Below are positions 32,978-63,718 of a DNA stretch of 64,000 bases, in pieces. The stretch spans positions 1,775-65,774 of the forward strand of contig DJFZ01000032.1 of NCBI GenBank assembly GCA_002432655.1, read 5' to 3'. Positions within the stretch are counted from its first letter, which is position 1, and every line of letters begins with the position of its first letter. The position numbers were made by a program, and so were the translations under genes. The notes beneath the pieces were generated by a model, which was given only the letters and a program-made list of their open reading frames with translations, did no database searches and was not told the DNA's origin. This stretch comes from Thiotrichaceae bacterium UBA5859 (GTDB lineage: Bacteria; Pseudomonadota; Gammaproteobacteria; UBA5859).

Positions 32978-33305
32978 CTACATAAACCTTCCTTGAATAC
33001 TGCTTTCAATATCTCCGCTGGAGATTAACTTTTTACGTTTCTAGGCACTGCGCGGGGTTAAAACCCAGATTGACTCATCTTATAGCGACTGGATTGTGCT
33101 CAGATTGAAGACGGGATCACCTTCGGATTGGCTCACTTCCGCCCTCTATCTATCGATGAAAAAATGAATTTATCAATAAAAATAAGGTGTTGGGAGGTTA
33201 ATCTAGAGTATAAAAACAAAAGTCGAACCTTTTCAACAGATTTAATATATTTCAGCGTTTATTCAACATCGTTTTTATTAAATTTTTCTTAATAATGCAC
33301 AACTT

Positions 33306-34121: not shown

Positions 34122-34278
34122 GGCGACTGTGGCCTACTTTCCGAATAATTATATTTACTATAATAATAGTCGACCCGATATTGTCCCTATTGAGTGTCTA
34201 ATATTTAAACAGTTGTGAACCTGGTCGCAAAAATTAATATTTATTTATATGTAGAAAGAGGGCTTAACCTGGATACGG

Positions 34279-38366: not shown

Positions 38367-38374
38367 GACGATGA

Positions 38375-39154
38375 TTAAAGTTCTTCTAAGGAGCGTCGTG
38401 AGAATCTATCCCTTGACAAGCCCATGTCATAGTCTATGGACTCCAAGCGAATTTCGGTGCTATGTTGAGAGATCAAATCGGTCATGACCGAATGCGTCAC
38501 AGTCCAATATCCCTCGATTTTCTTTTTCGAAAGAACTTTAAAACTCTTTATAGGGTCCTCATCACCCGACCGATAAAACTCGATTTTCATCGCTAATAGG
38601 GTGTCGGGATCAATCCAGCTGAGACGCTTGCTATAAACAGTAGACTGCGCTCTGAGCGGAATACTCTCTAAAACTATACAGTCGCAGCTGCCAATGGGCA
38701 TCGCTTTCACAATCGCATGTTTATCAAGATTAGGCGGCCTATCTCTAAGATCTTCAAAGAAGATATCAGAGCCAACAAATCGTCCTCCCTTTCTGGAAGA
38801 AGCAATACGACGTGCTCGATCAAGATCAGGTAAAAAAACCAATTGCTCTTTGTTTACCCCACTCACATCATGGGTCAACAAACCCACCCCCTTCATATCT
38901 GCTGGCGAGCTAAAACGTATCAGCGAGCGAATGCCTCCAGCTCCTTCATCTAGGCGATAGGTAGTCATGCGGCGAATACGAGGCTTGGTACCAGGTGAAA
39001 TTAAATGCATTTCGCCTACAGAAACGAAATCAATACCGTCAGGTCGTTCATACACCCGCTGGGCAAGAAGATCACCATCTTCCGTTGCCCATGAGGGTTG
39101 AACAAACAGCGTCAGTATAGGCGCAATAACAGCTAAAAGTATAGAAAACCGCAC
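38375..39154 (-). CDS. LolA-like outer-membrane lipoprotein-sorting family periplasmic protein
   Basis: Signal peptide; IRFSSPADMKGVGLLTH...QLVFLPDLDRARRIASSRKGGRFVGSDIFFEDL matches the conserved core of the LolA_like family often paired with MMPL transporters. Confidence 0.65.
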   Translation of the reverse strand: MRFSILLAVIAPILTLFVQPSWATEDGDLLAQRVYERPDGIDFVSVGEMHLISPGTKPRIRRMTTYRLDEGAGGIRSLIRFSSPADMKGVGLLTHDVSGVNKEQLVFLPDLDRARRIASSRKGGRFVGSDIFFEDLRDRPPNLDKHAIVKAMPIGSCDCIVLESIPLRAQSTVYSKRLSWIDPDTLLAMKIEFYRSGDEDPIKSFKVLSKKKIEGYWTVTHSVMTDLISQHSTEIRLESIDYDMGLSRDRFSRRSLEEL

Positions 39155-39287: not shown

Positions 39288-40181
39288 TTACCGAACTCTT
39301 CGTCGAGCCAGACCACCCATCCCTAATAATCCTAACCCCATCAAAGCGAGCGTTCCAGGTTCAGGTACAGCAACTGTGAAGTCGATACTACCATTATGGT
39401 CAGAAAGCACAGTAAACAGTTCAGAATTTAAAGGATCTCCAGGACCTACTACTACATTATCTGTGTTTTGGTCTAAATTCCAGGAAAGCGCAATGATGCC
39501 ACCATCTAATAAATCGTTGGCATCGGAATCTGCGCTTGTATCTGCAATACCATCACCATTGCTATCAAAGAAGAAGAAATCTTCCAGAGCAAAAGTGATT
39601 TCACCAAAAATAATGGAAGAACCTGATACAAAAGCACCACCCGCGAAAAGATTCGAGCCTGTACCACCGAGAATAGTCAACTCAAGAACCTTGGTTCCAT
39701 CACCGTAGCCAGTGTCATCACCCAGACCTAAACTACCATTGTCATTGCGATTTAATGCGGTATCTAGATAAAACGAGATGACGGTACCAGAATCGTAGGT
39801 AGTGGTTTGATTTACGCCGTCAAAAGCAGTTACGGTTCCGCTTAGTCCAGTCCAGGTTGCGGTTAACTCATACCCGCCTAGAGAATCCAAACCTTCATCA
39901 TCAATTATCGCTGAAGCTATCAATCCATTAATGTAGGCATTACCAGAATCAACAAAGGAGTCCCCTACGGTTAGACCTGGATTACCATCATCATCAAATT
40001 GAACAGACTCTGTGTTCGCAGAAAAAGCGAACTGCTGTGCCACACCAGTCAGAGTGTTGGCATCAAAGCCTGTTCCAGCAGAACCTGCCACACCAACATC
40101 ATAAAAAAAGCCAGTAGCAAAAGCACTAGAACTTGCCGCTAATATTGAAGCCCCTAAAGTCGCCTTACTTAAAGTTTTCAT
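39288..40181 (-). CDS. PEP-CTERM sorting-domain exoprotein
   Basis: Signal peptide MKTLSKATLGASILAASSSAFA; Gly/Asp/Thr/Ser-rich body with Asp-rich D-x-N-x-D-G-like loops (FDSNGDGIADTSAD); C-terminal VPEPGTLALMGLGLLGMGGLARRRVR, i.e. PEP motif, TM helix and Arg cluster. Confidence 0.9.
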   Translation of the reverse strand: MKTLSKATLGASILAASSSAFATGFFYDVGVAGSAGTGFDANTLTGVAQQFAFSANTESVQFDDDGNPGLTVGDSFVDSGNAYINGLIASAIIDDEGLDSLGGYELTATWTGLSGTVTAFDGVNQTTTYDSGTVISFYLDTALNRNDNGSLGLGDDTGYGDGTKVLELTILGGTGSNLFAGGAFVSGSSIIFGEITFALEDFFFFDSNGDGIADTSADSDANDLLDGGIIALSWNLDQNTDNVVVGPGDPLNSELFTVLSDHNGSIDFTVAVPEPGTLALMGLGLLGMGGLARRRVR

Positions 40182-40230: not shown

Positions 40231-40246
40231 AGCAAGTGCTGTGCCA
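40231..40246 (-). promoter_or_regulatory. Sigma-54 (RpoN) -24/-12 promoter for the PEP-CTERM gene
   Basis: Minus strand reads TGGCAC-AGCAC-TTGCT, a perfect TGGCAC-N5-TTGCW match. The -12 element lies ~50 nt upstream of the ATG, with an AAGGGTGA Shine-Dalgarno between; the sigma-54 activator PrsR is encoded just upstream. Confidence 0.65.
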
Positions 40247-40479: not shown

Positions 40480-41394
40480 CTAAGGTTGAGAGCGCGCGAG
40501 TCTGCTACCGAATTGCCTTTTAGCATGTGAAATGAGCAATCTTTGCATGGGGTTCCTCCATCCAAAGGGTCTCCAAGTTTTACGTAATCGTTGTTTGTAG
40601 GCATCGAAGTGTAAGCCCCATGGTGCCGTTGTCACCTTTCCCCTAGCAAGCAAGATTTTTAAGGCTTGAGTGGCGGCTAGTCCCGCACATAACTCACAGG
40701 CCATTGGCGTAGACGGCCCTTGTCTGCGGTTAAAATCCACACGACTAGGCTCGATCAGATAACCCATCTGCAACATGGCCGGTGAAAGGCCGACCAGAAA
40801 TCGTATATATTGTTCCACTTCATCACGTCCTTGTAGGCCAAAATATGCCTCGAAAGACATGCCGCTGGGTAAAAATGCTAAGAACGCACAACCCATGCCC
40901 AAGGGAGCTGCAGTAATCGCCGGAATACCGCGCTCACCACAGGCGGTAAACAAAGCAGAACGTATTGGTAGCTGAAAAAAATCCAGGCTATCGACATAAA
41001 TATCAACGTCTTGGAGAAAATCATCCAGATTTTCCTCAGACACCCCTTGTTCAAAACCGGTTAAGTGCAACTCGGGATTAATATCGAGCGCCATCTGTGT
41101 CATGGTCTCTAATTTCGAACAACCCATGGAGCGAAGGCTGGCACCCGCTTGTCGATTAAAATTCGCAAGCTCAAAGCGATCAAATTCAGCCAGACTAAAA
41201 CCACCAACACCTAATCGGGTTAGAGTCAGCAAATGACTTCCCCCCACCCCGCCTAAACCGGCGATGGCAATTTTTTTTGCGCGTAAAATTTGCTGCTCAG
41301 ATTCGGTCACCCAACCCAGATTGCGTGAAAAAGCTTGTTCGTACTGAAACTGATTATCATCCATGATTCGTATATCGCGTGATGTCACCCTCAT
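40480..41394 (-). CDS. ThiF/MoeB/HesA-family E1-like adenylyltransferase
   Basis: IAIAGLGGVGGSHLLTLTRLGVGGFSLAEFDRFELANFNRQ is a Rossmann nucleotide-binding and E1 signature; 304 aa; a single C-x-x-C (CELC) near the C-terminus. Confidence 0.75.
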   Translation of the reverse strand: MRVTSRDIRIMDDNQFQYEQAFSRNLGWVTESEQQILRAKKIAIAGLGGVGGSHLLTLTRLGVGGFSLAEFDRFELANFNRQAGASLRSMGCSKLETMTQMALDINPELHLTGFEQGVSEENLDDFLQDVDIYVDSLDFFQLPIRSALFTACGERGIPAITAAPLGMGCAFLAFLPSGMSFEAYFGLQGRDEVEQYIRFLVGLSPAMLQMGYLIEPSRVDFNRRQGPSTPMACELCAGLAATQALKILLARGKVTTAPWGLHFDAYKQRLRKTWRPFGWRNPMQRLLISHAKRQFGSRLARSQP

Positions 41395-47021: not shown

Positions 47022-48383
47022 TCAAACTTTCAAATTATATTTACTCATTAAAGAGTAAAGTGTCGGCCGAGTGATACCTAGTAGTTCAGCAGCACGGGAC
47101 ATATTCCCTCCGGCATGACCTACTGCCTGAATGATGGCGTTCGTCTCTGCGCGTTCACGTACGGTGCGTAAGTTAAGAGGCAAAGACTGGTCTTTTTCTG
47201 CCGGAGTAATTTCTAGCTCGTCTGCTGAGATTTCATTGCCCTCAGCCATAATGACCGCTCTCTTGACGCGATTTTCTAATTCACGCACATTGCCAGGCCA
47301 TGCATAGTCCACAATTGCTTGACTGGCTTGAGAGGAAAACCCCTTAATTTCGATGCGATTCATTTCCCTTTTGAACCTATCTAAAAATGCCTTTGCCAAT
47401 AGCAGCACATCGCCTTCACGGGCTTTCAGCGGAGGAATATTAACCGTTACTTCACTAATTCGATAATACAAATCTTCTCTAAAATCACCTTGTTCTATTT
47501 TTTCTAATAGATCTTGATGAGTCGCTGAAATGATCCTCACGTCTACAGCTATTTGCCGTCGCCCCCCTACTCTCTCGATCACGCGCTCCTGGAGAAAACG
47601 TAAAAGTTTCGCTTGTAGTGGCAGGGGTAAGTCACCTATCTCATCCAGAAACAAAGTACCGCCGTTGGCCTGCTCAATCTTACCAATGGTTTGCTTAATG
47701 GCCCCGGTAAAGGCACCTTTTTCATGACCAAAGAGTTCCGATTCCAGCAAGTTGTCGGGGATAGCCGCACAATTGATAGCAATAAATGGCTCCTGCTCTC
47801 GACGACTTAGTTCATGTAATGCACGGGCAATGACTTCCTTCCCGGTACCACTTTGGCCAAGTAATAACACGGTTGCGTCGGTAGGGGCCAATTTTTCCAC
47901 CGTTCGACAAACTTTTAACATTTGAGGACTGGCCGCAATAATCCCCTTCAAGGGCGACGTCAGTTGAGTACTATGCTGCTGTCTCGACTCCTCTTCCAAC
48001 TGCCATACATGAAACGCTCGATCAACTATTAATTTAAGCACATCCGCATCAATAGGTTTTTGATAAAAATCATAAGCACCTTTTTCAACCGCCTGAATCG
48101 CTACTTTGCGATCCTCGTTTCCGGTCACCACAATGATTTTAGTGGCAGGTTGCAACTCTAATATTTCGGCGAGCGCCTTGAGCCCCTCACTTGCATTCGC
48201 CGGATCGGGTGGTAAGCCTAGATCACAAATCACCACTTGAGGCTCGTGACGTCGCAAGGCTTTAATTCCCGTCGCTCGGTCCGAACTAATCTCAACTAAA
48301 TAATCCTCGAAACACCATTTCAGCTGTTTTTGTAATCCTGCATCATCTTCAATTATCAAAATTGTTGGTTTTTCTTCCGACAC
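47022..48383 (-). CDS. prsR: Sigma-54-dependent response regulator of the PEP-CTERM system (NtrC family)
   Basis: Receiver domain (ILIIEDD...CDLGLP), AAA+ sigma-54 interaction domain with Walker A GQSGTGKE and GAFTGA motif (EKGAFTGA), C-terminal Fis-type HTH. Confidence 0.85.
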   Translation of the reverse strand: MSEEKPTILIIEDDAGLQKQLKWCFEDYLVEISSDRATGIKALRRHEPQVVICDLGLPPDPANASEGLKALAEILELQPATKIIVVTGNEDRKVAIQAVEKGAYDFYQKPIDADVLKLIVDRAFHVWQLEEESRQQHSTQLTSPLKGIIAASPQMLKVCRTVEKLAPTDATVLLLGQSGTGKEVIARALHELSRREQEPFIAINCAAIPDNLLESELFGHEKGAFTGAIKQTIGKIEQANGGTLFLDEIGDLPLPLQAKLLRFLQERVIERVGGRRQIAVDVRIISATHQDLLEKIEQGDFREDLYYRISEVTVNIPPLKAREGDVLLLAKAFLDRFKREMNRIEIKGFSSQASQAIVDYAWPGNVRELENRVKRAVIMAEGNEISADELEITPAEKDQSLPLNLRTVRERAETNAIIQAVGHAGGNMSRAAELLGITRPTLYSLMSKYNLKV

Positions 48384-54919: not shown

Positions 54920-56941
54920 TTGATTGGCAGATATCTTTTAGAAATTCACACAAACCTCGTTAATATTGAACTTTTTGATTGTACATATTGTCGGTTCAAT
55001 GACATTAAATTTGGTTCTAGTTACGCAAACACTCATCTCGATGATGAAGGAATTTTTACGCTCTTGACGAAATCAATCAATCTCTACGCAGTTTCCGCCG
55101 GGCGGCTACTTGCGTCCCTACCAATATTAGCCTGGGCATTATGGTTCGCTCTGACTCACCCATTGTCACCATCACTGCTTTTCTTGTTCAGCTTAGTATA
55201 TTTTATATTAATACTGATCCAGCCCCACTTATGGCTTTGGATTGTCCCAGCCGCGTTACCCATCCTAGATCTAGCTCCACTAACCGGACGCTTCTATTTA
55301 GACGAATTCGATCTCTTAATGGCATTAACCATAATACGATTCTTGTTATTTCCTTCAGTACCTATCAGATCTAGCAGGCGGTTTCATTTCACGCTGTTTA
55401 ATTTGTTTATACTCTTTTATGGCGTTGCGGCAATACATGCACTCTTGCCCCTAGAAGCGATGCATTCAACCACCTTTTTCTCCTACTTCACACAATATAA
55501 CGCACTTCGCCTAATAAAGGGGCCAATGTGGGTTGGGCTTATTTATATTTTAGTTCGACATAATCAGATGCTGTTTAACAAACGCACACTATTTAACGGA
55601 ATCACGTTAGGCATGTCGTTGACCATCGCTGTTTGCCTGATAGAACGATTGTTATTTACGGGGTTACTGGATCTTTCCAAAGATTATCGCATAGCTGGGC
55701 TTTTTTCCGGAATGCACATAGGTGGTGCATATATTGACTCATATCTTGTACTGGCGTTGCCAGTTTTTATTTACACCTTACTTCATCGACAGAGAACTGC
55801 CGTTTGGACGATATTGATCTATATTTCAGTCCTAGCTTCAGTATATATAATTTATGTCACCTACTCTCGCACCACCTATCTGGCAGCCGTTTTTTGTGTA
55901 TTACCACTTTTATGGGTAGCCTACAAAAATCAGCGAGTCATAGGCGATAACAGCGACACAAAGAAATCTATTGTACTTTTAGGTCTCGTTCTCTTAACCA
56001 TCAGCTTACTTGTTTTCTCGGGTGGATTTATCCAGAAAAGGGTTGTAGATGTACCTGCGGATATGGAAAACCGCTATTCACACTGGAAAATGGTGCTGAG
56101 TTTGAAACAGAAAGATGTTTTTCATCATTTATTCGGTATGGGACTGGGTCAATACCCATTGCATTATTTTTGGAGTAGCAACTCTGATCGACGTCCGGGG
56201 GTTATCGGCATCAAGCACGCGCCAAATTCACACACGGTGTTGCTCTCCGGCGGCTCTCCTGTCTATCTTAACCAACACTTTGAACCTCAGAAAATGCGCG
56301 TGTTTTCTCTCATGATTAAGGCGAGAGCCCTCACTCCAGGCTCACATTTGGTCATCTATCTTTGTGAAAAATCCTATCTTTTTTCCGCTGATTGCTTGGT
56401 TCGTCATATTGGCGCCATCGTACCAGGCAGTGAATGGCAAAAAATTAATGTCTCTCTAACCTTAGACAACAGTTTGGGGAAATTCCAGGGAGTCAGAGAT
56501 AGTTTCGTCCCCTTAAGCCTGGGATTAGTTAATACCGGACAACATTCGCTATTGGAAATAGAATCAGTGACACTTCGTAATTCCAATGGAAAACAGCTGA
56601 TTAGAAACCATGAATTCAGCCACGGGACTCACCATTGGTTTTTCACCGCCGACAATCATTTAGCCTGGCATGTGGAAAATCTATTTATCTATTTCTGGTT
56701 TGAGTTAGGCATCATTGGTTTATTAATATTTTTGGCACTTTTGTCGCAATTATTACTAGCAGCATTAGGATCCTATAAATCTGGCCAAGCAGAAGATATA
56801 ATTCTATTTGGAGGGGTTTGTGGCTTAGTATTTATTGGTCTGTTTAACAGTCCATTTGACTTTCCACGTATTCTATTGCTATTTGGCTTATATTGTATCA
56901 GTATTTTGATTTTTGAAAGCGAACCGTATAAAACTACATAA
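54920..56941 (+). CDS. O-antigen ligase/polymerase-like (Wzy_C) polytopic membrane protein with a large periplasmic loop, of the PEP-CTERM-locus type
   Basis: About 10 TM N-terminal block including YSRTTYLAAVF; ~150-aa hydrophilic domain; two C-terminal TMs. Start codon uncertain because the first ~50 aa are not membrane-like. Confidence 0.55.
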   Translation: MIGRYLLEIHTNLVNIELFDCTYCRFNDIKFGSSYANTHLDDEGIFTLLTKSINLYAVSAGRLLASLPILAWALWFALTHPLSPSLLFLFSLVYFILILIQPHLWLWIVPAALPILDLAPLTGRFYLDEFDLLMALTIIRFLLFPSVPIRSSRRFHFTLFNLFILFYGVAAIHALLPLEAMHSTTFFSYFTQYNALRLIKGPMWVGLIYILVRHNQMLFNKRTLFNGITLGMSLTIAVCLIERLLFTGLLDLSKDYRIAGLFSGMHIGGAYIDSYLVLALPVFIYTLLHRQRTAVWTILIYISVLASVYIIYVTYSRTTYLAAVFCVLPLLWVAYKNQRVIGDNSDTKKSIVLLGLVLLTISLLVFSGGFIQKRVVDVPADMENRYSHWKMVLSLKQKDVFHHLFGMGLGQYPLHYFWSSNSDRRPGVIGIKHAPNSHTVLLSGGSPVYLNQHFEPQKMRVFSLMIKARALTPGSHLVIYLCEKSYLFSADCLVRHIGAIVPGSEWQKINVSLTLDNSLGKFQGVRDSFVPLSLGLVNTGQHSLLEIESVTLRNSNGKQLIRNHEFSHGTHHWFFTADNHLAWHVENLFIYFWFELGIIGLLIFLALLSQLLLAALGSYKSGQAEDIILFGGVCGLVFIGLFNSPFDFPRILLLFGLYCISILIFESEPYKTT

Positions 56942-56961: not shown

Positions 56962-57633
56962 GTGAAGGAAGTTCATAACATGACAATAAGACTATCGCCA
57001 CTGCCAACCAAAGAGGTTTTGTTTGTACTTTTTTTCTCATTACTAGGAATTAGTTCACTGGGCTACGCAATAGAATTCAAAACTTTTCAACCTAATTCGC
57101 CAGCCAATCAAAATGACTATTTTTCAACCGATTCAATCTCTACGAAAAGAGTTCGCACTGTAGAGCGCCACCATTGGGATAAAGCGCGCCAACATAAGGA
57201 ACGTGGCGAAATACAATACGCTTTTGGAGATATCGATTTCATATTACGCTATGTGCCCAACCACCCCCATGCGCTCATGCAGATGTCTGAAATTAGCATG
57301 GCTGCAGGTAAACCGGACACGGTGCGCCCCTATCTAGACTACGCAATACAATATCGTCCGAAGAATTCCTCCACCCACATCATATATGGTATCCATCTAC
57401 ACCGCACCAAGAACTACAGCGAAGCTGTGCAACACTACAAAAGAGCGCTTGAATTAGATCCTAAAGCCAGCGAGACACACTATAATTTAGGGCTCAGCTA
57501 TTTTGAACTAAAAGAGTATACCCTAGCCCAGAAGCACGCTAAAATTGCCTACGACCGTGGTTATCCTTTGCCCGGACTAAAAGACAAATTGCGCCAACTA
57601 GGCCATTGGCCAGCACAAGAGAATTCACCATAA
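56962..57633 (+). CDS. Secreted TPR-repeat protein
   Basis: Signal peptide then 3-4 TPR units (AVQHYKRALELDPKASETHYNLGLSYFEL). Confidence 0.6.
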   Translation: MKEVHNMTIRLSPLPTKEVLFVLFFSLLGISSLGYAIEFKTFQPNSPANQNDYFSTDSISTKRVRTVERHHWDKARQHKERGEIQYAFGDIDFILRYVPNHPHALMQMSEISMAAGKPDTVRPYLDYAIQYRPKNSSTHIIYGIHLHRTKNYSEAVQHYKRALELDPKASETHYNLGLSYFELKEYTLAQKHAKIAYDRGYPLPGLKDKLRQLGHWPAQENSP

Positions 57634-57724: not shown

Positions 57725-58858
57725 ATGGATCTCTATTTTCAATGCATCACTAATTTTGAAGATTTCCTGGGCTTAAAACACTCCTGGCGCCAGCTATTGG
57801 CTAAGATTGACTCTCCGAGCCTATTTCAAACCTTTGAGTGGCATGAATCGGTTCTTTCCTGGGTTCGCGATGAAGTATCCCTGCGAATTTTATTGTTATA
57901 TGGTAATGATGAACTAATCGGCATTGCACCTTTCGCGCTCTATGAGAAAAGGGCCGCCGGAATTCGATATCTGGTCTTGGACTTTATAAAATGTCCGGAT
58001 AATCAGATCTGTGATTTTCTTCTACATCCTCAATATAAAGATGAAAGTATCAAATTAGTTGCTCAATACCTACGACAATCTTCCGATTGGACGGCCCTAA
58101 ATCTTGCTCATAATCCAGCCAATTCCAGCCATGCAGAAAAACTACAGGAAGAGCTAGATTCCGTCGGATTAGTGACTGATTTATCCTCATTCGATAACAA
58201 TTGGTTTATCTCTCTCAACTCTACCTGGGAAAGTTTTTACCGAGATCGCAGCAGGCGTCTTAAAAAAGGAAACAACCTTGTACTCAATAAACTCAATCAA
58301 TCTCACGAATGGGAAATAAAACAGTATCAAAATACCGAACTGCTTCCCGAGTCTGAATTAATTCAACTTGTGACCAAACTGTCGGCGAATAGTTGGAAAG
58401 TAGACACAAATAACAGCCTCAACTTCCCTGGCCCACAGGCATTTATTCGCACATTAACACACCATCTATTGGAAAATGGCTGGTTGTCCTTGTGGGTATT
58501 GTATATTGATGGCACTCCTGCCGCGATGGAATATCAAGTTAAATATGGCACAAGTTACCACGCCCTGCGATCAGATTTCGATCAGCAGTTCAGTCAACAG
58601 TCTCCGGGGACATTGTTAACATGGAAACTTACGGAGCAATTGTTCCATGTTCATGAAAGTAGTCCGTTCAAATATTATCTTGGCCCCGGTACCAATGACT
58701 ATAAAAAGCGTTGGACCACGTTTTCGGAACCACTTAGTGTGTTAAAGGGCTATAATCACACCTGGCTTGGTTATTTAATACAAACATATGATAAACAGAT
58801 CCTTCCAATTGCCAGAACATTGAGATCCAATCTTAATCAAAAATGGTCTAGTGAATAA
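57725..58858 (+). CDS. FemAB/CelD-like (BioF2-like GNAT) protein, PEP-CTERM-locus type
   Basis: 377 aa; C-terminal WLSLWVLYIDGTPAAMEYQVKYGTSYHALRSDFDQQF is typical of the FemAB-related acetyltransferase_6 family. Confidence 0.6.
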   Translation: MDLYFQCITNFEDFLGLKHSWRQLLAKIDSPSLFQTFEWHESVLSWVRDEVSLRILLLYGNDELIGIAPFALYEKRAAGIRYLVLDFIKCPDNQICDFLLHPQYKDESIKLVAQYLRQSSDWTALNLAHNPANSSHAEKLQEELDSVGLVTDLSSFDNNWFISLNSTWESFYRDRSRRLKKGNNLVLNKLNQSHEWEIKQYQNTELLPESELIQLVTKLSANSWKVDTNNSLNFPGPQAFIRTLTHHLLENGWLSLWVLYIDGTPAAMEYQVKYGTSYHALRSDFDQQFSQQSPGTLLTWKLTEQLFHVHESSPFKYYLGPGTNDYKKRWTTFSEPLSVLKGYNHTWLGYLIQTYDKQILPIARTLRSNLNQKWSSE

Positions 58859-58860
58859 AT

Positions 58861-60675
58861 ATGAGTTATTTATTGTCCATCGCAACATCTATTCATTCCT
58901 CATATAGAGACAGGTTAGAGGCACTAAAATTTAAATCAGATAATGAGTTCACGTTTCATCAGTCTTCTTCTGCTTGTGTACTGATAAGCGCAGATGACAC
59001 TTCCTGCAATTATTTCGAGCTCTTTCCTTGGGTGGTCTTTTTGCAAGGTTATCCCTTCCTTCAGCAATATTCTTCCAACCGACCAAACGTACCTTTAGAT
59101 GCAAAAAACATTCTTGATCTCTATTTGTCAGAACCTACAGAACTCGGGACTAAGTTATCTGGATCTTATAGCTTAGTGATTGGCAATATAGAGACAGGTG
59201 AAACTTACTGTTGTACGGATCTATTTGCCTCTTACCCAATATTTTATTTTCACCTTAACCAATGTTTCATTGTCAGCTCATCTGCTAAGCTTTTAAAAAG
59301 AGTGGTGGGCCAAGATGCACCACTGAGTCATCAATCTATCTTTGATTATTTTTTCTTTCATGTTATCCCTCACCCTCATACGCCTTACCAAAATATATAT
59401 CGATTGGCGCCGAACAGATTTGCACATTTTTACCGAGCTAGTTTGAACCATGGGGAGATAAAACCTTATCCGAATAAACATAAACACAAGAGTTTTAAAA
59501 CACTCAAAAAAGAATTAAAAATTATATTAAATGACACAACGGAGCAATTACTGAACCTAGATGGTGATGCAGGTTGTTTTTTAAGCGGCGGCCTAGACAG
59601 CTCTACGGTAGCGGGGCTACTTTCGGCTCATCAATCTAATAGCCAAGCCTTCTCTATCGGCTTTGATGCTGAAGGGTACGATGAAGTGCCTTTTGCCCAA
59701 CAGTCAGCTGATCATTACGATATCTCACTCACAACTCGCTATGTGACGCCCAAAGATGTGGTCGATTTCGTACCCACTCTAGCAGCCGAGTCTGAGTTGC
59801 CTTTTGGGAATGCCTCTGCCGTGCCTACCTATTATTGTGCACTGTTAGCCAAGGAAAATGGCAAACGTTCTTTGTTCGGGGGAGATGGCGGCGACGAGCT
59901 CTTCGGGGGCAATGAACGCTATCTTAAACAACAACTCTTGTGGCAATACGACAAATTGCCGAAATTTCTGAGCCAAAAATTGATTAATCCCTTATCTCCG
60001 GTGTTGCCTAGAATAGGTCTAAACAAACTAAAAAGCTACATTCAACAAGCTCAAATACCATTGCCTGCCAGGTTGCAATCTTACAATTTGCTTTACCAGC
60101 TAGGCATGGAAAATATATTTAACCCGGACTTTTTTACCAACATCGACATTCAACACCCAATCGACTTGATGAACGAACAGTACCACGCTTGCCCGGCAGG
60201 CCCGACCTTAGAAAAGATACTGTATACCGATCTACAATTTACTCTCGCCGACAGCGACATTCCCAAAGTAGTGAATATGTGTCATTTGGCTGGAATTGAA
60301 GTACAGTTTCCACTACTAGACGAGGAGCTTATCAATTTTTCTCGAAATATACCGCCTGATCTAAAACTTAAGAATAGAGAGTTGAGATATTTTTATAAAA
60401 AGTCTCTGGCAGATTGGCTGCCACCTCATACCTTAAAGAAAAGTAAACATGGGTTCGGACTGCCGTTTGGCGTGTGGATGGTACAGGATAGGCGGTTAAA
60501 GGAGATGGCCTTCGACCACTTAATTAGTTTTAAAGAGCGCCAAATATTATCTAGTGAGTTCCTGGATAAAATTGCCAATGAACATCTAATTAACCACCCC
60601 GCTTATTACGGTACTTTTGTTTGGTTGATTTTGGTTTTAGAATCCTGGTTACAGGAAAATACCATTCACCACTAA
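58861..60675 (+). CDS. Asparagine synthetase family protein lacking the N-terminal Cys nucleophile
   Basis: PP-loop FLSGGLDSS present; the N-terminal domain begins MSYLLSI rather than MCG; 2-nt gap after the upstream FemAB-like gene. Confidence 0.75.
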   Translation: MSYLLSIATSIHSSYRDRLEALKFKSDNEFTFHQSSSACVLISADDTSCNYFELFPWVVFLQGYPFLQQYSSNRPNVPLDAKNILDLYLSEPTELGTKLSGSYSLVIGNIETGETYCCTDLFASYPIFYFHLNQCFIVSSSAKLLKRVVGQDAPLSHQSIFDYFFFHVIPHPHTPYQNIYRLAPNRFAHFYRASLNHGEIKPYPNKHKHKSFKTLKKELKIILNDTTEQLLNLDGDAGCFLSGGLDSSTVAGLLSAHQSNSQAFSIGFDAEGYDEVPFAQQSADHYDISLTTRYVTPKDVVDFVPTLAAESELPFGNASAVPTYYCALLAKENGKRSLFGGDGGDELFGGNERYLKQQLLWQYDKLPKFLSQKLINPLSPVLPRIGLNKLKSYIQQAQIPLPARLQSYNLLYQLGMENIFNPDFFTNIDIQHPIDLMNEQYHACPAGPTLEKILYTDLQFTLADSDIPKVVNMCHLAGIEVQFPLLDEELINFSRNIPPDLKLKNRELRYFYKKSLADWLPPHTLKKSKHGFGLPFGVWMVQDRRLKEMAFDHLISFKERQILSSEFLDKIANEHLINHPAYYGTFVWLILVLESWLQENTIHH

Positions 60676-60676
60676 C

Positions 60677-61630
60677 TTATCGATAATAGTTGATCCACAT
60701 ACGAGCCAGATACTTGAAGACAGTGTCATCCCATGGGGTAAATCTGTTCAATTGCCATAGATCACTATTTCTATCTGACACGCCCCATTCTGTAGACAAG
60801 GCAGCTTTAAAACCCTCATTCTTGACAAGATCCACATCTCGTTGGCTATAGTCCTGATCACGTTTGCCATTTGGATAGGCAAAGTAATCCACCGGCGCTT
60901 GAATCAGATTTTCCAATATTGTTTTGCTTTCTCGGATCTCTACTTTTGCGTCATTATCGCTTAGAGTATGTAATATAGGATGAGATTGGGTATGTGCTCC
61001 AATGCCCATACCTGCTCTGTGTAACATCTTGACTTGGTCTGCATTCAGCATCAGACTTTTAGGTATATGCACACCTAGTTTATTGACGACTTTGGATGCG
61101 AAATCCAATCGCTCTGTTGGAACTAAATATTTTATTGCGTGGATGATCTGTTTACCAGCCTGCAATCTCTCCCCTTCTGACGCCAGGGAATAGTGGCCTA
61201 ATCCCAACTCAATCAGTTCCACTTCTTGATGTTGAGTATCACGCATAGACTCCCAAATATAGTCGTTCCACATCGCCCCTCCTTCAATATAATTCGTTGT
61301 AATAAAGAAGGTCGCTGGGATTTGATAACGCTCCAAAATGGGCAATGCGACCAATAGATTGTCTTCATAGCCATCATCAAAGGTGATGCACACTGAGCCT
61401 GGCTTCAAATCCCCTTGCTGTAACTGCTCCAACGCATCCACTAAAGAAAGAGGGGCAAAATACGCTCTTAACAACGACATTTGCCACTCAAACTGTTTAG
61501 CCATCATATCTGTGGGCAATGGATATCCCTCAGGATGGACTCGGTGATAAATCAGAATAGGGAGCTTCACGCCGTTTTGGCCTCTCGCCACTACTCGTGT
61601 GACAGATTTTGCTAGCAGCGACAGGTTCAT
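60677..61630 (-). CDS. Polysaccharide deacetylase (NodB-homology domain)
   Basis: ITFDDGYEDN NodB motif 1. I place the start at the internal Met (MNLSLLAKS), which makes an ATGA overlap with the upstream methyltransferase stop; the track ORF extends to 61669. Confidence 0.75.
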   Translation of the reverse strand: MNLSLLAKSVTRVVARGQNGVKLPILIYHRVHPEGYPLPTDMMAKQFEWQMSLLRAYFAPLSLVDALEQLQQGDLKPGSVCITFDDGYEDNLLVALPILERYQIPATFFITTNYIEGGAMWNDYIWESMRDTQHQEVELIELGLGHYSLASEGERLQAGKQIIHAIKYLVPTERLDFASKVVNKLGVHIPKSLMLNADQVKMLHRAGMGIGAHTQSHPILHTLSDNDAKVEIRESKTILENLIQAPVDYFAYPNGKRDQDYSQRDVDLVKNEGFKAALSTEWGVSDRNSDLWQLNRFTPWDDTVFKYLARMWINYYR

Positions 61631-62367
61631 GTTTGCGGGCGCTCCGCTTGAATCACATAGGAGTGGCAAAATAAACGCGCGATACTATCACTCTTTCTAA
61701 ATAACCAATCTACGTAAGATCGTTCTAGTACAACCTGTGCCTTCGGTAATCGAGATGGCGCCATGGGTAGCCAGTGGTTCGCTTGTACTTGAAATTTATT
61801 TTGTTCCAATACCGCCACTAACTGCTGTGGACGAGTGTAATTTAAATGTCGGGATAGACCTTGTCGTTTACGTCTACTAATTTCCCAGCGATGAGGAACA
61901 CATTCTAGATTGAGGCCATCAATCCAAATCTTCGCACCAGGTTTGCTCACACGATACATTTCACTGATTAATTCATCTATGTTATGTAAAACTTGACTGA
62001 CACCGAAACAGATCATCCCTGAAAAGCTAGCATCCGCAAAGGGAAGAGATAAAGCCGAACCGTTCACCCAACAGATATGCTGAGGGTAAAACTGCTTGGC
62101 TCTTAACAATGAGGGCAACGAATAATCCAATCCCACGACTGTTTGACATCCATAATTTCGTAACCATTGACAATAGGTTCCCGCGCCGCAACCGATATCT
62201 AACCAACTCTCCATCCCGGTTGGATCGCAATGACGTTGAAAAAACCGGAGCCTTGTTTGCAGGCCGGGAGTAGACCAACCCGCCACTCCTGCTTCATCTG
62301 TACCCTGATTGGCGAATTCTTTAAACCGGGTTTTCCATTTATCTTCAAATTCTGAATCAGCGTTCAC
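61627..62367 (-). CDS. Class I SAM-dependent methyltransferase
   Basis: WLDIGCGAGTYCQWL motif I; 246 aa. Confidence 0.75.
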   Translation of the reverse strand: MNADSEFEDKWKTRFKEFANQGTDEAGVAGWSTPGLQTRLRFFQRHCDPTGMESWLDIGCGAGTYCQWLRNYGCQTVVGLDYSLPSLLRAKQFYPQHICWVNGSALSLPFADASFSGMICFGVSQVLHNIDELISEMYRVSKPGAKIWIDGLNLECVPHRWEISRRKRQGLSRHLNYTRPQQLVAVLEQNKFQVQANHWLPMAPSRLPKAQVVLERSYVDWLFRKSDSIARLFCHSYVIQAERPQT

Positions 62368-63718
62368 GACAGATCACTTCTTCTCGGTATGTCTGAACGA
62401 CTGAATCAAACAACTGCGCTAACTGCTTGGAAAGCGTCTGACGTGAGTACTGTTTGATCTGTCCTAATTCACAGCAATTTTGCGCAAGATGAGTAGCGCG
62501 CCATAACTCGATTGCCGTGGCAACCGCCTCCTCCAATGCCATCGGATCCTTTGGATCGATTGCCCAGCCTGCCGACAAATTCGTGATCAGATCGCTACTG
62601 GCACCTGACTGTACTAATGCAAATACAGGTGTCTGTGTACGTAAATATTCAAATAGCTTGGCCGGAATCAAACTGCGGGTATCTTCAGATGCTTGCAACA
62701 ATAATAAGAGATCAGCTTTGGCCATTTTCTCTAAAGCCTCATGATAAGGTATACGCTCATGGAAGCTAACAGAACTTTGTAATTCATTCTGTCTAATTGA
62801 CTCAGCCATTGCGTCACTATGGGCGAATTGGCCTGGGCCATAAAACTCAATTCTGATCTCTTCCGCCGACAGCTTTCCATTGTTGATAAGTTTCCCTAAG
62901 GTATCGAATAGTGGCCGCGGATCGCGAAAATTATCATTGACGCTCCCGGCATGGATCATAGTAAAAGTGCTACTTTGCGGCTCTTTCTTTTGCTCGATAT
63001 GCACAAAATCCGTCTCATCGTATCCGTTATAGATAGTGCAAAACTTCTCGGACACTTGCGGGTATCGTCGCTTAAAAGAGTCGGACAACTCGTTTGTAGT
63101 ACTCACCACCGCATTGGCCTGCTGAATGTACCGAGCCTCTGTCTTGCGGGCATACTGATGAACCAGCCAAGGGGTACCCGGCTCCGGTGGCTCTTCATAC
63201 CAAGGATCTCGAAAATCCATCACCCAAGGGACAGCCATTTTTTTCTGCAATGCCGACGCAATGCTGTGTGCAGTCGCGTGAGGACTAGTGGAATAGATTA
63301 AATCGTAGGGATCTCGCCGATAGATCTCCACTCCTTGAGGCACTGCCCACCATTTCCAGCCCATCCAGCGATCAGGAAGAGCAAGAATAGATGGATAGAT
63401 CCCTTTGATTGATAATTGAGTCTTGGAATTAATATAAGGTGTTCTATAAAGCGTAACATGAGATCCCACTTGATCTGTCAAAGTGGCATCAGTCATCTCG
63501 TAAGCATCTTCCTTTACTGACAGAACTGATACTCTCCAGCCAGATTCAATTAGATAGTTCGCATACTTGAGCGTCCGCAATACTCCGCTGCTACTGGCTT
63601 CTGGAGGAAAATGAAATGCGACGAAAAGAGCATGTCTTTGGGTATTCTGATCCTTGCTACCCACTTTGCGGATCCGTACTGATCTTTGTAAACACCGGGG
63701 CGCCTTGAGTAGTGACAA
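62357..63718 (-). CDS. GT4-family glycosyltransferase
   Basis: N-terminal ALFVAFHFPPEASSSG (GT4 N-domain), C-terminal E-x7-E-like region; 453 aa. The 5' end overlaps the next ORF, so the true start may be internal or non-ATG. Confidence 0.7.
   Translation of the reverse strand: MSLLKAPRCLQRSVRIRKVGSKDQNTQRHALFVAFHFPPEASSSGVLRTLKYANYLIESGWRVSVLSVKEDAYEMTDATLTDQVGSHVTLYRTPYINSKTQLSIKGIYPSILALPDRWMGWKWWAVPQGVEIYRRDPYDLIYSTSPHATAHSIASALQKKMAVPWVMDFRDPWYEEPPEPGTPWLVHQYARKTEARYIQQANAVVSTTNELSDSFKRRYPQVSEKFCTIYNGYDETDFVHIEQKKEPQSSTFTMIHAGSVNDNFRDPRPLFDTLGKLINNGKLSAEEIRIEFYGPGQFAHSDAMAESIRQNELQSSVSFHERIPYHEALEKMAKADLLLLLQASEDTRSLIPAKLFEYLRTQTPVFALVQSGASSDLITNLSAGWAIDPKDPMALEEAVATAIELWRATHLAQNCCELGQIKQYSRQTLSKQLAQLFDSVVQTYREEVICRER

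What the first reader, a model, noticed from the sequence alone, without database searches (positions are those of the whole stretch)
57725..60675. Asparagine-synthetase-like enzyme without its glutaminase nucleophile, coupled to a FemAB-like protein
The 604-aa protein keeps the ATP pyrophosphatase PP-loop (SGGLDSS) but starts MSYLLSI, so it lacks the N-terminal Cys that class II amidotransferases need for glutamine hydrolysis. It starts 2 nt after a FemAB/CelD-like acyltransferase. FemAB enzymes add amino acids using aminoacyl-tRNA, and AsnB-like enzymes amidate or adenylate carboxylates. The pair may therefore decorate the exopolysaccharide, or a PEP-CTERM protein, with amino-acid or amide groups.
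Basis: partly seen in the sequence, partly recalled or inferred. Interest (0 to 1): 0.55.

Follow-up and report, generated by a model that had tools for sequence, protein, structure and literature searches.

The report
Cys-less AsnB-like enzyme with Fem-like partner
Two tightly coupled genes in a slime-polysaccharide (PEP-CTERM/exosortase) locus encode an asparagine-synthetase-like enzyme that keeps its ATP-using half but has a dead glutamine-splitting half, and a FemX-shaped transferase; together with a neighbouring deacetylase they most likely add amide or amino-acid groups to a sugar, and they belong to a widespread family that has no name of its own in the libraries and papers I searched.

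Summary
ORF 58861-60675 (604 aa) has the AsnB fold and intact adenylation motifs. It starts MSYLLSI, with an in-frame TGA two codons upstream, so no MCG start is possible. It begins 2 nt after a 377-aa PF13480 protein whose predicted fold best matches FemX, FemA and MprF.

The missing Cys is a family trait, not a local accident. Homologues at about 40% identity start M-S/T-G-I/L-x-G-W, where x is Cys in only 56 of 120 and is never residue 2. The glutamine-binding Asn, Glu and Asp are not conserved either. Canonical MCGI paralogues sit in some of the same loci.

The coupling is real. An AsnB-like gene directly follows the GNAT in 36 of 57 independent metagenome loci, usually with a 4-nt overlap. 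One natural GNAT-AsnB-like fusion exists.

The pair sits in a recurring cassette (TPR, GNAT, AsnB-like, convergent CE4 deacetylase, methyltransferase, GT4) inside an XrtA/PEP-CTERM locus. This cassette parallels the P. gingivalis VimE/VimA/WbpS linking-sugar pathway. Substrate, acyl donor and nitrogen source remain inferred.

Verdict: a new variant of a known kind, of moderate interest.

The parts
56962..57633 (+). Small TPR protein (223 aa; gene callers start it at about 56980) with a hydrophobic N-terminus. It is the first gene of the TPR-GNAT-AsnB-like operon.
   Evidence: Pfam TPR_2/TPR_1/TPR_16 and a weak PrsT hit. Its homologue lies directly upstream of the GNAT or AsnB-like gene in many independent loci.
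57725..58858 (+). Tandem-GNAT, Fem-fold acyl/aminoacyl transferase of the CelD/BcsL-type PF13480 family (377 aa).
   Evidence: PF13480 at 7.7e-21. No NCBIfam hit, not even TIGR03019 at E<=10. AF2 pLDDT 95.3. Foldseek top hits are FemX 7z5y/1ne9 (E 2e-11, TM 0.56-0.62), FemA, MprF and Sba18. The family has 1,980 representative clusters at E<=1e-30.
58861..60675 (+). AsnB-like adenylating amide synthetase with a pseudo-glutaminase N-domain (604 aa).
   Evidence: PF00733 at 1.7e-64. TIGR03108 scores 206.8 bits against a cutoff of 816.9, aligned only from aa 98. AF2 pLDDT 91. Foldseek hits are TsnB9 (TM 0.72-0.76), CarA, BLS, ASNS and AsnB.
58861..59475 (+). Degenerate class-II glutaminase (Ntn-fold) domain, aa 1-205. 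It starts MSYLLSI and has LQGYP (aa 61-65) where AsnB has VNGEI.
   Evidence: Alignment A1 and column statistics. PurF and GFAT are hit through this domain only. The domain is under purifying selection (aa 1-100: pN 0.24 vs pS 0.65; aa 101-205: pN 0.19 vs pS 0.79).
59584..59604 (+). PP-loop SGGLDSS (ATP pyrophosphatase motif).
   Evidence: Invariant S242 G243 G244 D246 S247 S248 in 60 family members.
59878..59913 (+). GGDGGDELFGGN motif, the counterpart of AsnB SGEGSDEVFGG.
   Evidence: Invariant G341 D342 G343 G344 D345 E346 F348 G350 N351. The aligned human ASNS motif FSGEGSDELTQG is shown; the E. coli wording is from my knowledge.
60439..60477 (+). KSKHGFGLPFGVW motif. K529 is the likely counterpart of the catalytic Lys449 of E. 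coli AsnB.
   Evidence: Invariant K527 K529 G531-P535 G537 W539. The assignment to Lys449 is my inference from the known AsnB motif.
60677..61630 (-). CE4 (NodB-type) polysaccharide deacetylase, 317 aa (longest ORF runs to 61669), with no signal peptide. It is convergent, with its stop 1 nt from the AsnB-like stop. TFDDG and HTQSH motifs are present.
   Evidence: PF01522 at 4.9e-25 in two stretches. Only a trace hit to the XrtA deacetylase TIGR03006. An orthologue lies within 3 kb of AsnB-like genes in 18 of 51 fully flanked genome loci, and directly after GNAT-AsnB-like in many metagenome loci.
61627..62367 (-). Class I SAM methyltransferase (246 aa). Its stop overlaps the CE4 start by 4 nt.
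   Evidence: Methyltransf_11 at 3.8e-19, and DVU_1556-family at 54.8 bits. It recurs next to CE4 or the AsnB-like gene in loci L087-L089, L093, L097, L106, L120 and L147.
62357..63718 (-). GT4 glycosyltransferase, upstream of the methyltransferase in the same minus-strand operon (gene callers end it at 63664).
   Evidence: Glyco_transf_4/Glycos_transf_1, with weak hits to the stp3/stp2 XrtA GT families. It recurs beside the cassette.

Best explanation
The two genes are the core of a cytoplasmic sugar-tailoring cassette in an XrtA/PEP-CTERM exopolysaccharide locus. The cassette is TPR, tandem GNAT and AsnB-like on one strand, and GT4, methyltransferase and CE4 deacetylase converging on the other.

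Shown: the AsnB-like protein keeps everything needed to adenylate a carboxylate (PP-loop, DE motif, catalytic Lys motif). Its N-terminal Ntn domain is retained as a fold but has no nucleophile and no glutamine site. The partner has a FemX/MprF-type tandem-GNAT predicted fold. The two genes are translationally coupled, and in one lineage they are fused.

Inferred: the AsnB-like enzyme activates a carboxyl group of a lipid- or nucleotide-linked sugar unit (a uronic acid or another acidic substituent) as an acyl-AMP. The acyl-AMP is then captured by a nitrogen nucleophile that does not come from its own glutaminase. That nucleophile is either a substrate amine (an amino acid, or the sugar amine freed by the CE4 deacetylase) or free ammonia. 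The GNAT transfers an acyl or aminoacyl group onto an amine of the same unit. The net result is an amide- or amino-acid-decorated sugar. This corresponds to the VimE (CE4) / VimA (Fem-like GNAT) / WbpS (AsnB-like) route that builds the P. gingivalis linking sugar.
For: - Adenylation motifs are invariant across 60 family members.
- The full two-domain AsnB fold is predicted with high confidence.
- The N-domain lacks Cys2. The Asn74/Glu76/Asp98 equivalents are not conserved family-wide, and the x-G-W column holds Cys in only 56 of 120 members, never at residue 2.
- Starts are fixed independently by 4-nt ATGA/GTGA overlaps in many loci.
- Canonical MCGI...HRGPD...RRLSIID paralogues occur in some of the same loci (about 10 of the 78 fetched), so this family is an addition to them, not a replacement.
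- The N-domain is under purifying selection.
- The GNAT fold matches FemX, FemA, MprF and Sba18.
- GNAT followed by AsnB-like is found in 36 of 57 loci, with 9 more nearby.
- Natural fusion P0291: GNAT at 2-371, a 50-aa linker, AsnB-like at 421-1030.
- The CE4 is the commonest neighbour of the AsnB-like family (18 of 51 loci).
- The locus is XrtA-type: PrsK, PrsR, PrsT, the TIGR03013 priming GT, PepA and TIGR03097 all score above their cutoffs.
- Published analogue: genetics and mass spectrometry for VimE/VimA/WbpS, and the authors' note that PEP-CTERM loci carry the same three gene types (PMC7468200).
Against: - No biochemical data exist for any member of either family.
- No uronic-acid pathway gene (Wbp-type dehydrogenase or aminotransferase) is visible in the 30-64 kb part of the window or in the 10 kb beyond it, so the carboxylate substrate is unidentified.
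- The pyruvyl transferase downstream is not conserved in the 72% relative.
- From the AsnB-like side the strict GNAT orthologue is rare (3 of 51 loci), so the AsnB-like enzyme does not need this GNAT.
- The GNAT is not in TIGR03019.
- The donor is unresolved. P0124 and the GNAT paralogues weakly hit BspF, annotated as a crotonyl transferase (which I take to imply an acyl-CoA donor), and an acetyl-CoA-binding tandem GNAT (2wpw) is also among the fold hits.
Confidence: 0.5

Rival explanations
1. The pair modifies a protein or peptide rather than a sugar. The AsnB-like enzyme would act like a lasso-peptide cyclase or amidase-in-reverse, adenylating an Asp/Glu side chain or the new C-terminus of a PEP-CTERM protein. 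The Fem-like GNAT would add an amino acid to a protein or peptide amine.
For: AsnB homologues that lack the glutaminase nucleophile, as far as they are characterised, use a substrate amine (lasso cyclases, beta-lactam and carbapenam synthetases; my knowledge). These families appear among the hits: NF033535 at 83 bits, and CarA and BLS by fold. A PepA-type PEP-CTERM protein is encoded in the locus.
Against: The scores are far below family cutoffs (83 against 525). No precursor peptide, leader protease or RiPP recognition gene lies beside the pair. The conserved neighbours are sugar enzymes: CE4, GT4, the priming glycosyltransferase and Wzy-like proteins. Both proteins appear cytoplasmic, whereas PEP-CTERM processing is expected at or beyond the inner membrane.
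Confidence: 0.12
2. Plain operon packaging: the AsnB-like enzyme is an ammonia-dependent uronamide synthase (WbpS-like) that works alone, and the GNAT is an unrelated N-acetyl/acyl-CoA transferase acting on a different position. Under this reading the coupling reflects only co-expression.
For: Most AsnB-like family members have no strict GNAT orthologue nearby. Weak hits of P0124 and the GNAT paralogues are to BspF, annotated as a crotonyl transferase. E. coli AsnB with Cys1 mutated retains ammonia-dependent activity (my knowledge).
Against: The GNAT family is followed directly by an AsnB-like gene in 63% of loci, mostly with start/stop overlap, and the two are fused in P0291. This argues for more than co-expression. 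The pseudo-glutaminase domain is kept under selection, which is unexplained if the domain has no role.
Confidence: 0.2
3. Small-molecule pathway: a GNAT plus an AsnB-like amidotransferase make a soluble compound, as Ngg/AsnO make the osmolyte N-acetylglutaminylglutamine amide, or as in beta-lactam-type chemistry.
For: TIGR03104 (NAGGN amidotransferase) is hit at 124.8 bits. GNAT plus AsnB-like pairing is the NAGGN logic (my knowledge).
Against: 124.8 bits against a cutoff of 570, and the match covers aa 80-356 only. The GNAT has no ATP-grasp domain. The cassette is embedded in, and conserved with, EPS/XrtA genes.
Confidence: 0.05
4. The AsnB-like protein is a catalytically dead scaffold or a decaying paralogue.
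For: The N-domain is poorly conserved and has the lowest pLDDT at residues 1-30.
Against: The C-domain catalytic motifs are invariant and mean column identity is 52%. pN is 0.13 against pS 0.78 in the C-domain. The frame is intact in all relatives.
Confidence: 0.04
5. Annotation artefact: the true protein is a normal glutamine amidotransferase with an MCG start that was missed.
For: None was found.
Against: An in-frame TGA lies two codons upstream. The same N-terminus occurs in the 72% orthologue. The N-domain length before the PP-loop (241 aa) is already full size. The family-wide N-terminus is fixed by overlapping stops.
Confidence: 0.01

Closest known systems
Wbp/Vim linking-sugar pathway of Porphyromonas gingivalis and Tannerella forsythia: VimE (CE4 deacetylase), VimA (Fem-like GNAT matching TIGR03019), WbpS/PGN_1234 (AsnB-like) (PMC7468200)
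   Same: The same three enzyme types are clustered together in a surface-polysaccharide locus that is linked to a sortase-like protein-attachment system. [quoted passage not shown]
   Different: Here the AsnB-like enzyme has no glutaminase site and the GNAT is not a TIGR03019 member. No Wbp uronic-acid genes are seen nearby. A methyltransferase and a TPR protein belong to the cassette. The sorting system is XrtA, not T9SS/PorU. Nothing has been tested experimentally.
Canonical XrtA/PEP-CTERM trio: TIGR03108 amidotransferase, TIGR03019 FemAB-related protein, TIGR03006 deacetylase
   Same: The locus type and the three protein superfamilies are the same. TIGR03108 is the best NCBIfam hit of the AsnB-like protein.
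   Different: All three window proteins fall far below the family cutoffs or do not hit at all: 206.8 against 816.9, no hit, and 18.5 against 276.2. Canonical MCGI paralogues co-occur with this family in other genomes. This is therefore a second, diverged set and not the canonical one.
AsnB homologues without glutaminase activity: beta-lactam synthetase, carbapenam synthetase CarA, lasso-peptide cyclases
   Same: They have the two-domain AsnB fold, an intact PP-loop adenylation site, and an N-domain retained without the Cys nucleophile. CarA and BLS rank just after TsnB9 among the fold matches.
   Different: Those enzymes make intramolecular lactam or isopeptide bonds in secondary metabolites or RiPPs. 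Sequence scores to them are low here, and the context is polysaccharide synthesis.
FemX/FemA/FemB, MprF aminoacyl-PG synthases and Sba18-type aminoacyl-tRNA-dependent transferases
   Same: The tandem-GNAT predicted fold matches (Foldseek probability 1.0, E about 1e-11 to 1e-9).
   Different: Sequence identity is only 9-12% and TM 0.5-0.6. There is no Pfam FemAB hit. tRNA dependence is untested, and an acetyl-CoA-binding tandem GNAT (2wpw) and BspF, annotated as a crotonyl transferase, are about equally close.
NAGGN pathway (Ngg GNAT/ATP-grasp plus AsnO amidotransferase, TIGR03104)
   Same: A GNAT and an AsnB-like enzyme are encoded together, with amidation of a carboxylate as the last step.
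   Different: AsnO is a true glutamine amidotransferase and Ngg carries an ATP-grasp domain. TIGR03104 scores 124.8 against a cutoff of 570. The product there is a soluble osmolyte, whereas the context here is EPS.

Membership tests
Glutamine-hydrolysing asparagine synthetase / class II (Ntn) amidotransferase (TIGR01536, PF13537/PF13522) | Cys as residue 2, which becomes the N-terminal nucleophile after Met removal | tested here: not met
   The protein starts MSYLLSI and its first Cys is residue 39. No upstream start is possible. In the family alignment the Cys column is Leu5 in the window protein.
Glutamine-hydrolysing asparagine synthetase / class II (Ntn) amidotransferase (TIGR01536, PF13537/PF13522) | Glutamine-binding and oxyanion residues (Arg49, Asn74-Gly75-Glu76, Asp98 in E. 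coli AsnB numbering, from my knowledge) | tested here: not met
   The window protein has LQGYP where AsnB has VNGEI, and only the Gly is conserved (116 of 120). The Asn, Glu and Asp equivalents are variable across 120 homologues. No conserved Arg is evident by eye in the region where Arg49 would lie; its column was not counted. D80 aligns with the ASNS Asp in the window protein only.
Glutamine-hydrolysing asparagine synthetase / class II (Ntn) amidotransferase (TIGR01536, PF13537/PF13522) | Score at or above the curated cutoffs | tested here: not met
   TIGR01536 scores 180.3 against 267.1, and GATase_7 scores 21.9 against 25. The window's own PurF (3936-5453) matches the N-domain part of TIGR01536 from residue 2 and serves as an internal control.
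AsnB superfamily synthetase domain (PF00733) | PP-loop SGGxDS plus downstream acidic and Lys motifs; AsnB two-domain fold | tested here: met
   PF00733 scores 219 bits. The motifs are invariant. Foldseek gives TM 0.57-0.76 to TsnB9, CarA, BLS, ASNS and AsnB.
XrtA/PEP-CTERM system amidotransferase (TIGR03108) | Full-length match at or above 816.9 bits | tested here: not met
   The score is 206.8 bits, and profile positions 1-117 are unmatched.
PEP-CTERM-associated FemAB-related protein (TIGR03019) | HMM match | tested here: not met
   There is no NCBIfam hit for the window GNAT or for three homologues, even at E<=10. I could not confirm that TIGR03019 is still held in this NCBIfam release.
FemABX aminoacyl-tRNA-dependent transferases | Tandem-GNAT Fem fold | tested here: met
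   AF2 pLDDT is 95.3. FemX 7z5y/1ne9 and FemA 1lrz are top Foldseek hits with probability 1.0.
FemABX aminoacyl-tRNA-dependent transferases | Use of aminoacyl-tRNA as donor | not testable with these tools
   Fold neighbours include both aminoacyl-tRNA users (FemX, MprF, Sba18) and an acetyl-CoA binder (2wpw); the weak sequence hits are to BspF, annotated as a crotonyl transferase.
Wbp/Vim-type linking-sugar cassette | Co-located CE4 deacetylase, Fem-like GNAT and AsnB-like enzyme | tested here: met
   The three genes span window 57725-61630. The arrangement recurs in loci L087-L089, L093, L097, L117, L120, L128 and L129.
Wbp/Vim-type linking-sugar cassette | Wbp genes that make a 2,3-diamino uronic acid substrate | tested here: not met
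   None was found among the annotated ORFs of window 30-64 kb or in the 10-kb extension L003. The rest of the genome could not be searched.
Lasso-peptide cyclase (NF033535) / macrolactam cyclase (NF033561) | Family-level score and the neighbouring precursor and B-protein genes | tested here: not met
   Scores are 83.1 against 525 and 54.4 against 300. The neighbours are polysaccharide genes.

The most novel reading that the evidence does not exclude
The Fem-fold GNAT and the pseudo-glutaminase AsnB-like enzyme form a complex. The dead glutaminase domain would serve as the docking or entry site in place of ammonia production. Together with the CE4 deacetylase, the complex would build an amide-linked, amino-acid-bearing sugar that is the long-sought acceptor onto which exosortase XrtA transfers cleaved PEP-CTERM proteins. 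This would be the proteobacterial counterpart of the T9SS linking sugar.
Probability: 0.1. Interest if true: 0.8.

Novelty: new variant of a known kind. Interest (0 to 1): 0.4.

Why it matters
PEP-CTERM/exosortase systems drive floc and biofilm formation in wastewater and environmental bacteria. The molecule to which exosortase attaches its substrates is still unknown. The only solved analogue, the T9SS linking sugar, is made by a deacetylase, a Fem-like GNAT and an AsnB-like enzyme.

This work defines a second, widespread and unnamed version of that trio. Its AsnB-like member cannot use glutamine, and it is translationally coupled to its GNAT and occasionally fused to it. That gives a concrete, testable set of genes for finding amide or aminoacyl decorations on these polysaccharides. 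It also offers a new example of how the AsnB scaffold is reused once the glutaminase is lost.

In addition, it shows that the annotation 'asparagine synthase (glutamine-hydrolysing)' carried by many of these proteins is very probably wrong.

Tried and rejected
- Upstream alternative start or frameshift giving MCG: rejected (in-frame TGA, conserved N-terminus).
- Membership of TIGR03108, TIGR03019 and TIGR03006: rejected on scores.
- Sequence search of the GNAT against PDB: no hit at E<=1, so structure prediction was needed.
- Literature search for PF13480/Acetyltransf_6/BcsL returned only irrelevant papers. A search for Cys-less AsnB in polysaccharide clusters found nothing specific.
- The idea that all AsnB-like family members are GNAT-coupled: rejected. 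The strict orthologue is within 3 kb in only 3 of 51 genome loci, and GNAT-adjacent members are scattered over an NJ tree.
- Weak GNAT paralogues beside other family members were tested for TIGR03019 membership. None hit; there were only weak BspF hits.
- P0356 as a second fusion: probably a read-through or gene-calling artefact, because the linker is Arg-rich and an internal M-N-G-V-L-G-W start is present.
- A sigma-54 promoter for the operon: only a 1-mismatch site inside the upstream gene, and the total hit count is at chance level.


Full report
**Observation.** The window holds two same-strand ORFs, 57725-58858 (377 aa) and 58861-60675 (604 aa).
- The first ends with TAA at 58856-58858 and the second starts with ATG at 58861, a 2-nt gap.
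- In the frame of the second ORF a TGA lies at 58852-58854, so the protein cannot start further upstream.
- Its N-terminus is MSYLLSI and its first Cys is residue 39.
- Pfam gives Asn_synthase at 1.7e-64 for aa 220-598. The glutaminase model GATase_7 reaches only 21.9 bits (cutoff 25), over aa 80-146.
- NCBIfam's best hit is the XrtA/PEP-CTERM amidotransferase TIGR03108, at 206.8 bits against a cutoff of 816.9 and aligned only from residue 98.
- The PP-loop SGGLDSS (aa 242-248), GGDGGDELFGGN (aa 340-351) and KSKHGFGLPFGVW (aa 527-539) are present.
- The upstream protein matches PF13480 Acetyltransf_6 (7.7e-21) and no NCBIfam model.

**Context.** Positions 1 to about 30 kb hold mostly housekeeping genes. 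These include a canonical PurF that starts MCG and matches the class-II glutaminase part of TIGR01536 from residue 2, which serves as an internal control.
- From about 31 kb to the end the window is an XrtA/PEP-CTERM exopolysaccharide locus.
- Above their curated cutoffs are two PrsT (TIGR02917), PrsR (TIGR02915, 706 bits), PrsK (TIGR02916, 636 bits), the TIGR03013 priming glycosyltransferase, GalE, a PepA-type PEP-CTERM protein, and one of the two TIGR03694 exosortase-associated acyltransferases (33306-34121, 250 bits against 112). The second (32294-32977) falls just short at 105 bits.
- The same contig in public assemblies continues with the exosortase-A-associated O-antigen-ligase-like protein TIGR03097 (424 bits), a GT2, a pyruvyl transferase, a flippase, a CapK-like adenylating enzyme and a GT4.
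- The source is a Gammaproteobacteria MAG from beach sand.

**The AsnB-like protein belongs to a large family whose glutaminase half is degenerate.**
- A search of 5.8 billion proteins returned one 72% relative and then a very large number of proteins at about 40% identity, 600-630 aa long.
- In a 60-sequence alignment the C-terminal domain is highly conserved, with 66 invariant positions that include all adenylation motifs. The first ~100 residues are poorly conserved.
- Most members start M-S/T-G-I/L-C-G-W, so the Cys is residue 5, not 2. Among 120 homologues that column is Cys in 56, another residue (A, F, W, V, H, T, G, L, S) in 25, and unalignable in 39, including the window protein.
- These starts are not gene-calling noise. 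In many independent loci the start codon overlaps the stop of the preceding GNAT gene by 4 nt, which fixes the N-terminus. There the variable column is C, Y, W, A, F or L.
- The position of the AsnB oxyanion Asn is variable. The following Gly is kept (116 of 120). The Glu and Asp positions that hold glutamine are not conserved. The window protein reads LQGYP where AsnB reads VNGEI.
- By contrast, other AsnB paralogues in some of the same loci start MCGI(T/A)G...HRGPD...RRLSIID.
- The window protein and its 72% orthologue have pN far below pS in every part: aa 1-100, 0.24 against 0.65; C-domain, 0.13 against 0.78. The N-domain is therefore maintained, not decaying.
- AlphaFold2 on the family alignment gives pLDDT 91 and pTM 0.92. 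Foldseek finds the whole two-domain fold of TsnB9 (TM 0.72-0.76), carbapenam synthetase, beta-lactam synthetase, human ASNS and E. coli AsnB. PurF and GFAT are hit through the N-domain alone.
- Conclusion: an AsnB-type adenylating enzyme with a pseudo-glutaminase domain.

**The partner protein.**
- AlphaFold2 gives pLDDT 95.3 for a tandem-GNAT fold. The best PDB matches are Weissella FemX (E 2e-11, TM 0.56-0.62), S. aureus FemX and FemA, MprF/aminoacyl-PG synthase C-domains, and the aminoacyl-tRNA-dependent peptide synthases Sba18/Sbb17. An acetyl-CoA-binding tandem GNAT from the clavulanate pathway also appears.
- 'Fem-like' is therefore right at fold level.
[quoted passage not shown] One homologue (P0124) and the related paralogues give only weak hits to the Brucella crotonyl transferase BspF.
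- Sources call its homologues 'CelD/BcsL family acetyltransferase'.
- The donor, acyl-CoA or aminoacyl-tRNA, cannot be decided here.
- The family is sizeable: 1,980 representative clusters at E<=1e-30.

**Is the coupling real?** The answer depends on which side one starts from.
- I fetched 80 metagenome loci through the GNAT family (31-39% identity to the window protein). Of the 57 loci with at least 600 nt of sequence downstream of the GNAT, an AsnB-like gene follows directly in 36 and lies nearby in 9 more. The junction is usually a 4-nt overlap.
- A 1032-aa protein, P0291, is a natural fusion: GNAT at 2-371, a 50-residue Pro/Ala/Thr-rich linker, and AsnB-like at 421-1030. The Cys column in it is Gln and lies internally.
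- From the AsnB-like side the picture differs. In 51 fully flanked loci from GTDB species representatives (Beta- and Gammaproteobacteria such as Nitrosospira, Thauera, Accumulibacter, Massilia, Halioglobus and Thioalkalivibrio), the strict GNAT orthologue is within 3 kb in only 3. Any PF13480-like protein is within 3 kb in 10. The commonest conserved neighbour is the orthologue of the window's CE4 deacetylase, in 18 of 51, often convergent and abutting.
- GNAT-adjacent members are scattered over a neighbour-joining tree.
- So the GNAT family nearly always comes with an AsnB-like enzyme, while the AsnB-like family also works without this GNAT.

**The cassette.**
- In the window the plus-strand operon TPR (56962-57633), GNAT and AsnB-like converges on a minus-strand operon of GT4 (62357-63718), methyltransferase (61627-62367) and CE4 deacetylase (60677-61630).
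- The two stop codons are 1 nt apart. The MT/CE4 junction overlaps by 4 nt.
- The same set, in the same order, recurs at about 35% identity in L087-L089, L093, L097 and L120, and with variations elsewhere.
- In several loci it lies back-to-back with the priming glycosyltransferase/PrsK/PrsR operon (L105, L108, L117, L131, L062).
- None of GNAT, AsnB-like, CE4 and MT has an evident signal peptide, judged by eye. The module should therefore act on nucleotide- or lipid-linked intermediates on the cytoplasmic side.

**Mechanism.**
- Shown: an intact adenylation site, a dead glutamine site, a Fem-type transferase partner, and a conserved deacetylase neighbour.
[quoted passage not shown] This is the sugar to which T9SS cargo is attached. 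The authors pointed out that PEP-CTERM loci carry the same three gene types and speculated on a similar role (PMC7468200). Large EPS clusters of floc formers carry two or three 'asparagine synthase/wbpS' genes, some with transposon phenotypes (PMC3684757; PMC9012009).
- Inferred: the window cassette is a second, diverged version of that trio. The AsnB-like enzyme adenylates a sugar-borne carboxylate and forms an amide with a nucleophile that its own N-domain does not supply.
- From my knowledge, every characterised AsnB homologue that has lost the glutaminase (beta-lactam synthetase, CarA, lasso cyclases) uses a substrate amine. I therefore slightly favour an amine (an amino acid, or the CE4-freed sugar amine) over free ammonia. 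This is not tested.
- The asymmetry of the coupling suggests that the GNAT acts on, or needs, the AsnB-like enzyme's product rather than the reverse. This too is inference.
- A weakness is that no uronic-acid pathway gene is visible in the roughly 40 kb of locus I could read. The pyruvyl transferase downstream is absent from the 72% relative.

**Comparison and novelty.**
- The pair is the same kind of thing as the AsnB-like/FemAB-like/deacetylase genes long known in XrtA loci and worked out in the T9SS system.
- It fails the membership tests for each named family (TIGR03108, TIGR03019, TIGR03006, TIGR01536). It forms its own widespread group, with a family-wide pseudo-glutaminase domain and an occasional fusion.
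- I found no paper describing this subfamily in the held library.
- I rate it a new variant of a known kind. Interest is moderate (0.4): a specialist would not be very surprised by a Cys-less AsnB paralogue in an EPS locus, but the conserved cassette bears on the open question of what exosortase attaches its substrates to.

Noticed in passing
window 40231-40246 (- strand), upstream of 39288-40181: A perfect sigma-54 -24/-12 consensus, TGGCACAGCACTTGCT, lies about 50 nt upstream of the PepA-type PEP-CTERM gene. This fits control by the sigma-54 activator PrsR (47022-48383) and the published RpoN-dependent pepA. Sites with up to 2 mismatches are at chance level overall (32 found, 36 expected), so only this exact site stands out.
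   Followed up: partly
window 56733-56748 (+): A one-mismatch sigma-54-like site, TGGCACTTTTGTCGCA, lies inside the 3' end of the Wzy_C-like gene, about 215-230 nt upstream of the TPR-GNAT-AsnB-like operon. It may be chance.
   Followed up: no
window 40480-41394 (-): A ThiF/E1-like adenylyltransferase (PRK08223, 421 bits) sits between the PEP-CTERM gene pepA and the two prsT genes. Its role in an exosortase locus is unexplained.
   Followed up: no
window 32294-39154 (-): This stretch holds two AHL-synthase-like genes of the exosortase-associated acyltransferase type TIGR03694 (33306-34121 above the cutoff; 32294-32977 just below it, 105 against 112 bits), followed by an MMPL/RND-type transporter, a DUF1302/SPOR protein and a LolA-like protein. 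It looks like a lipid or acylated-product export module beside the PEP-CTERM gene.
   Followed up: no
window 60677-61669 (-): The CE4 deacetylase has about 85 extra residues between the TFDDG and HxxxH motifs, so Pfam matches it in two stretches. It barely resembles the canonical XrtA deacetylase TIGR03006 (18.5 against 276 bits).
   Followed up: partly
L165 5441-8539 (protein P0291): This is a natural GNAT-AsnB-like fusion. It is followed by a UbiA-family prenyltransferase, an EamA transporter and an Acyl_transf_3/SGNH acyltransferase, and preceded by a GT4 and a flippase. That is a different polysaccharide context from the window.
   Followed up: partly
proteins P0314, P0338, P0353, P0357, P0373: Several relatives carry two copies of the whole tandem-GNAT unit fused head to tail (650-830 aa).
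   Followed up: no
window 23102-23728 (-): An HvfX-family Cu-binding RiPP maturation protein (215 bits against a cutoff of 80) lies outside the EPS locus. Its neighbours were not examined.
   Followed up: no
window 54920-56941 (+) and L003 14797-16155: The locus has two Wzy_C/O-antigen-ligase-like membrane proteins. The downstream one is the exosortase-A-associated TIGR03097. The upstream 673-aa one has no NCBIfam family, and gene callers disagree about its start (471-673 aa).
   Followed up: no
window 61627-62367 (-) and L003 19394-20767: The methyltransferase and the CapK-like adenylating enzyme weakly match the Desulfovibrio DVU_1556 and DVU_1553 families (54.8 and 143 bits). This hints at a shared cassette with that organism's cluster.
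   Followed up: no
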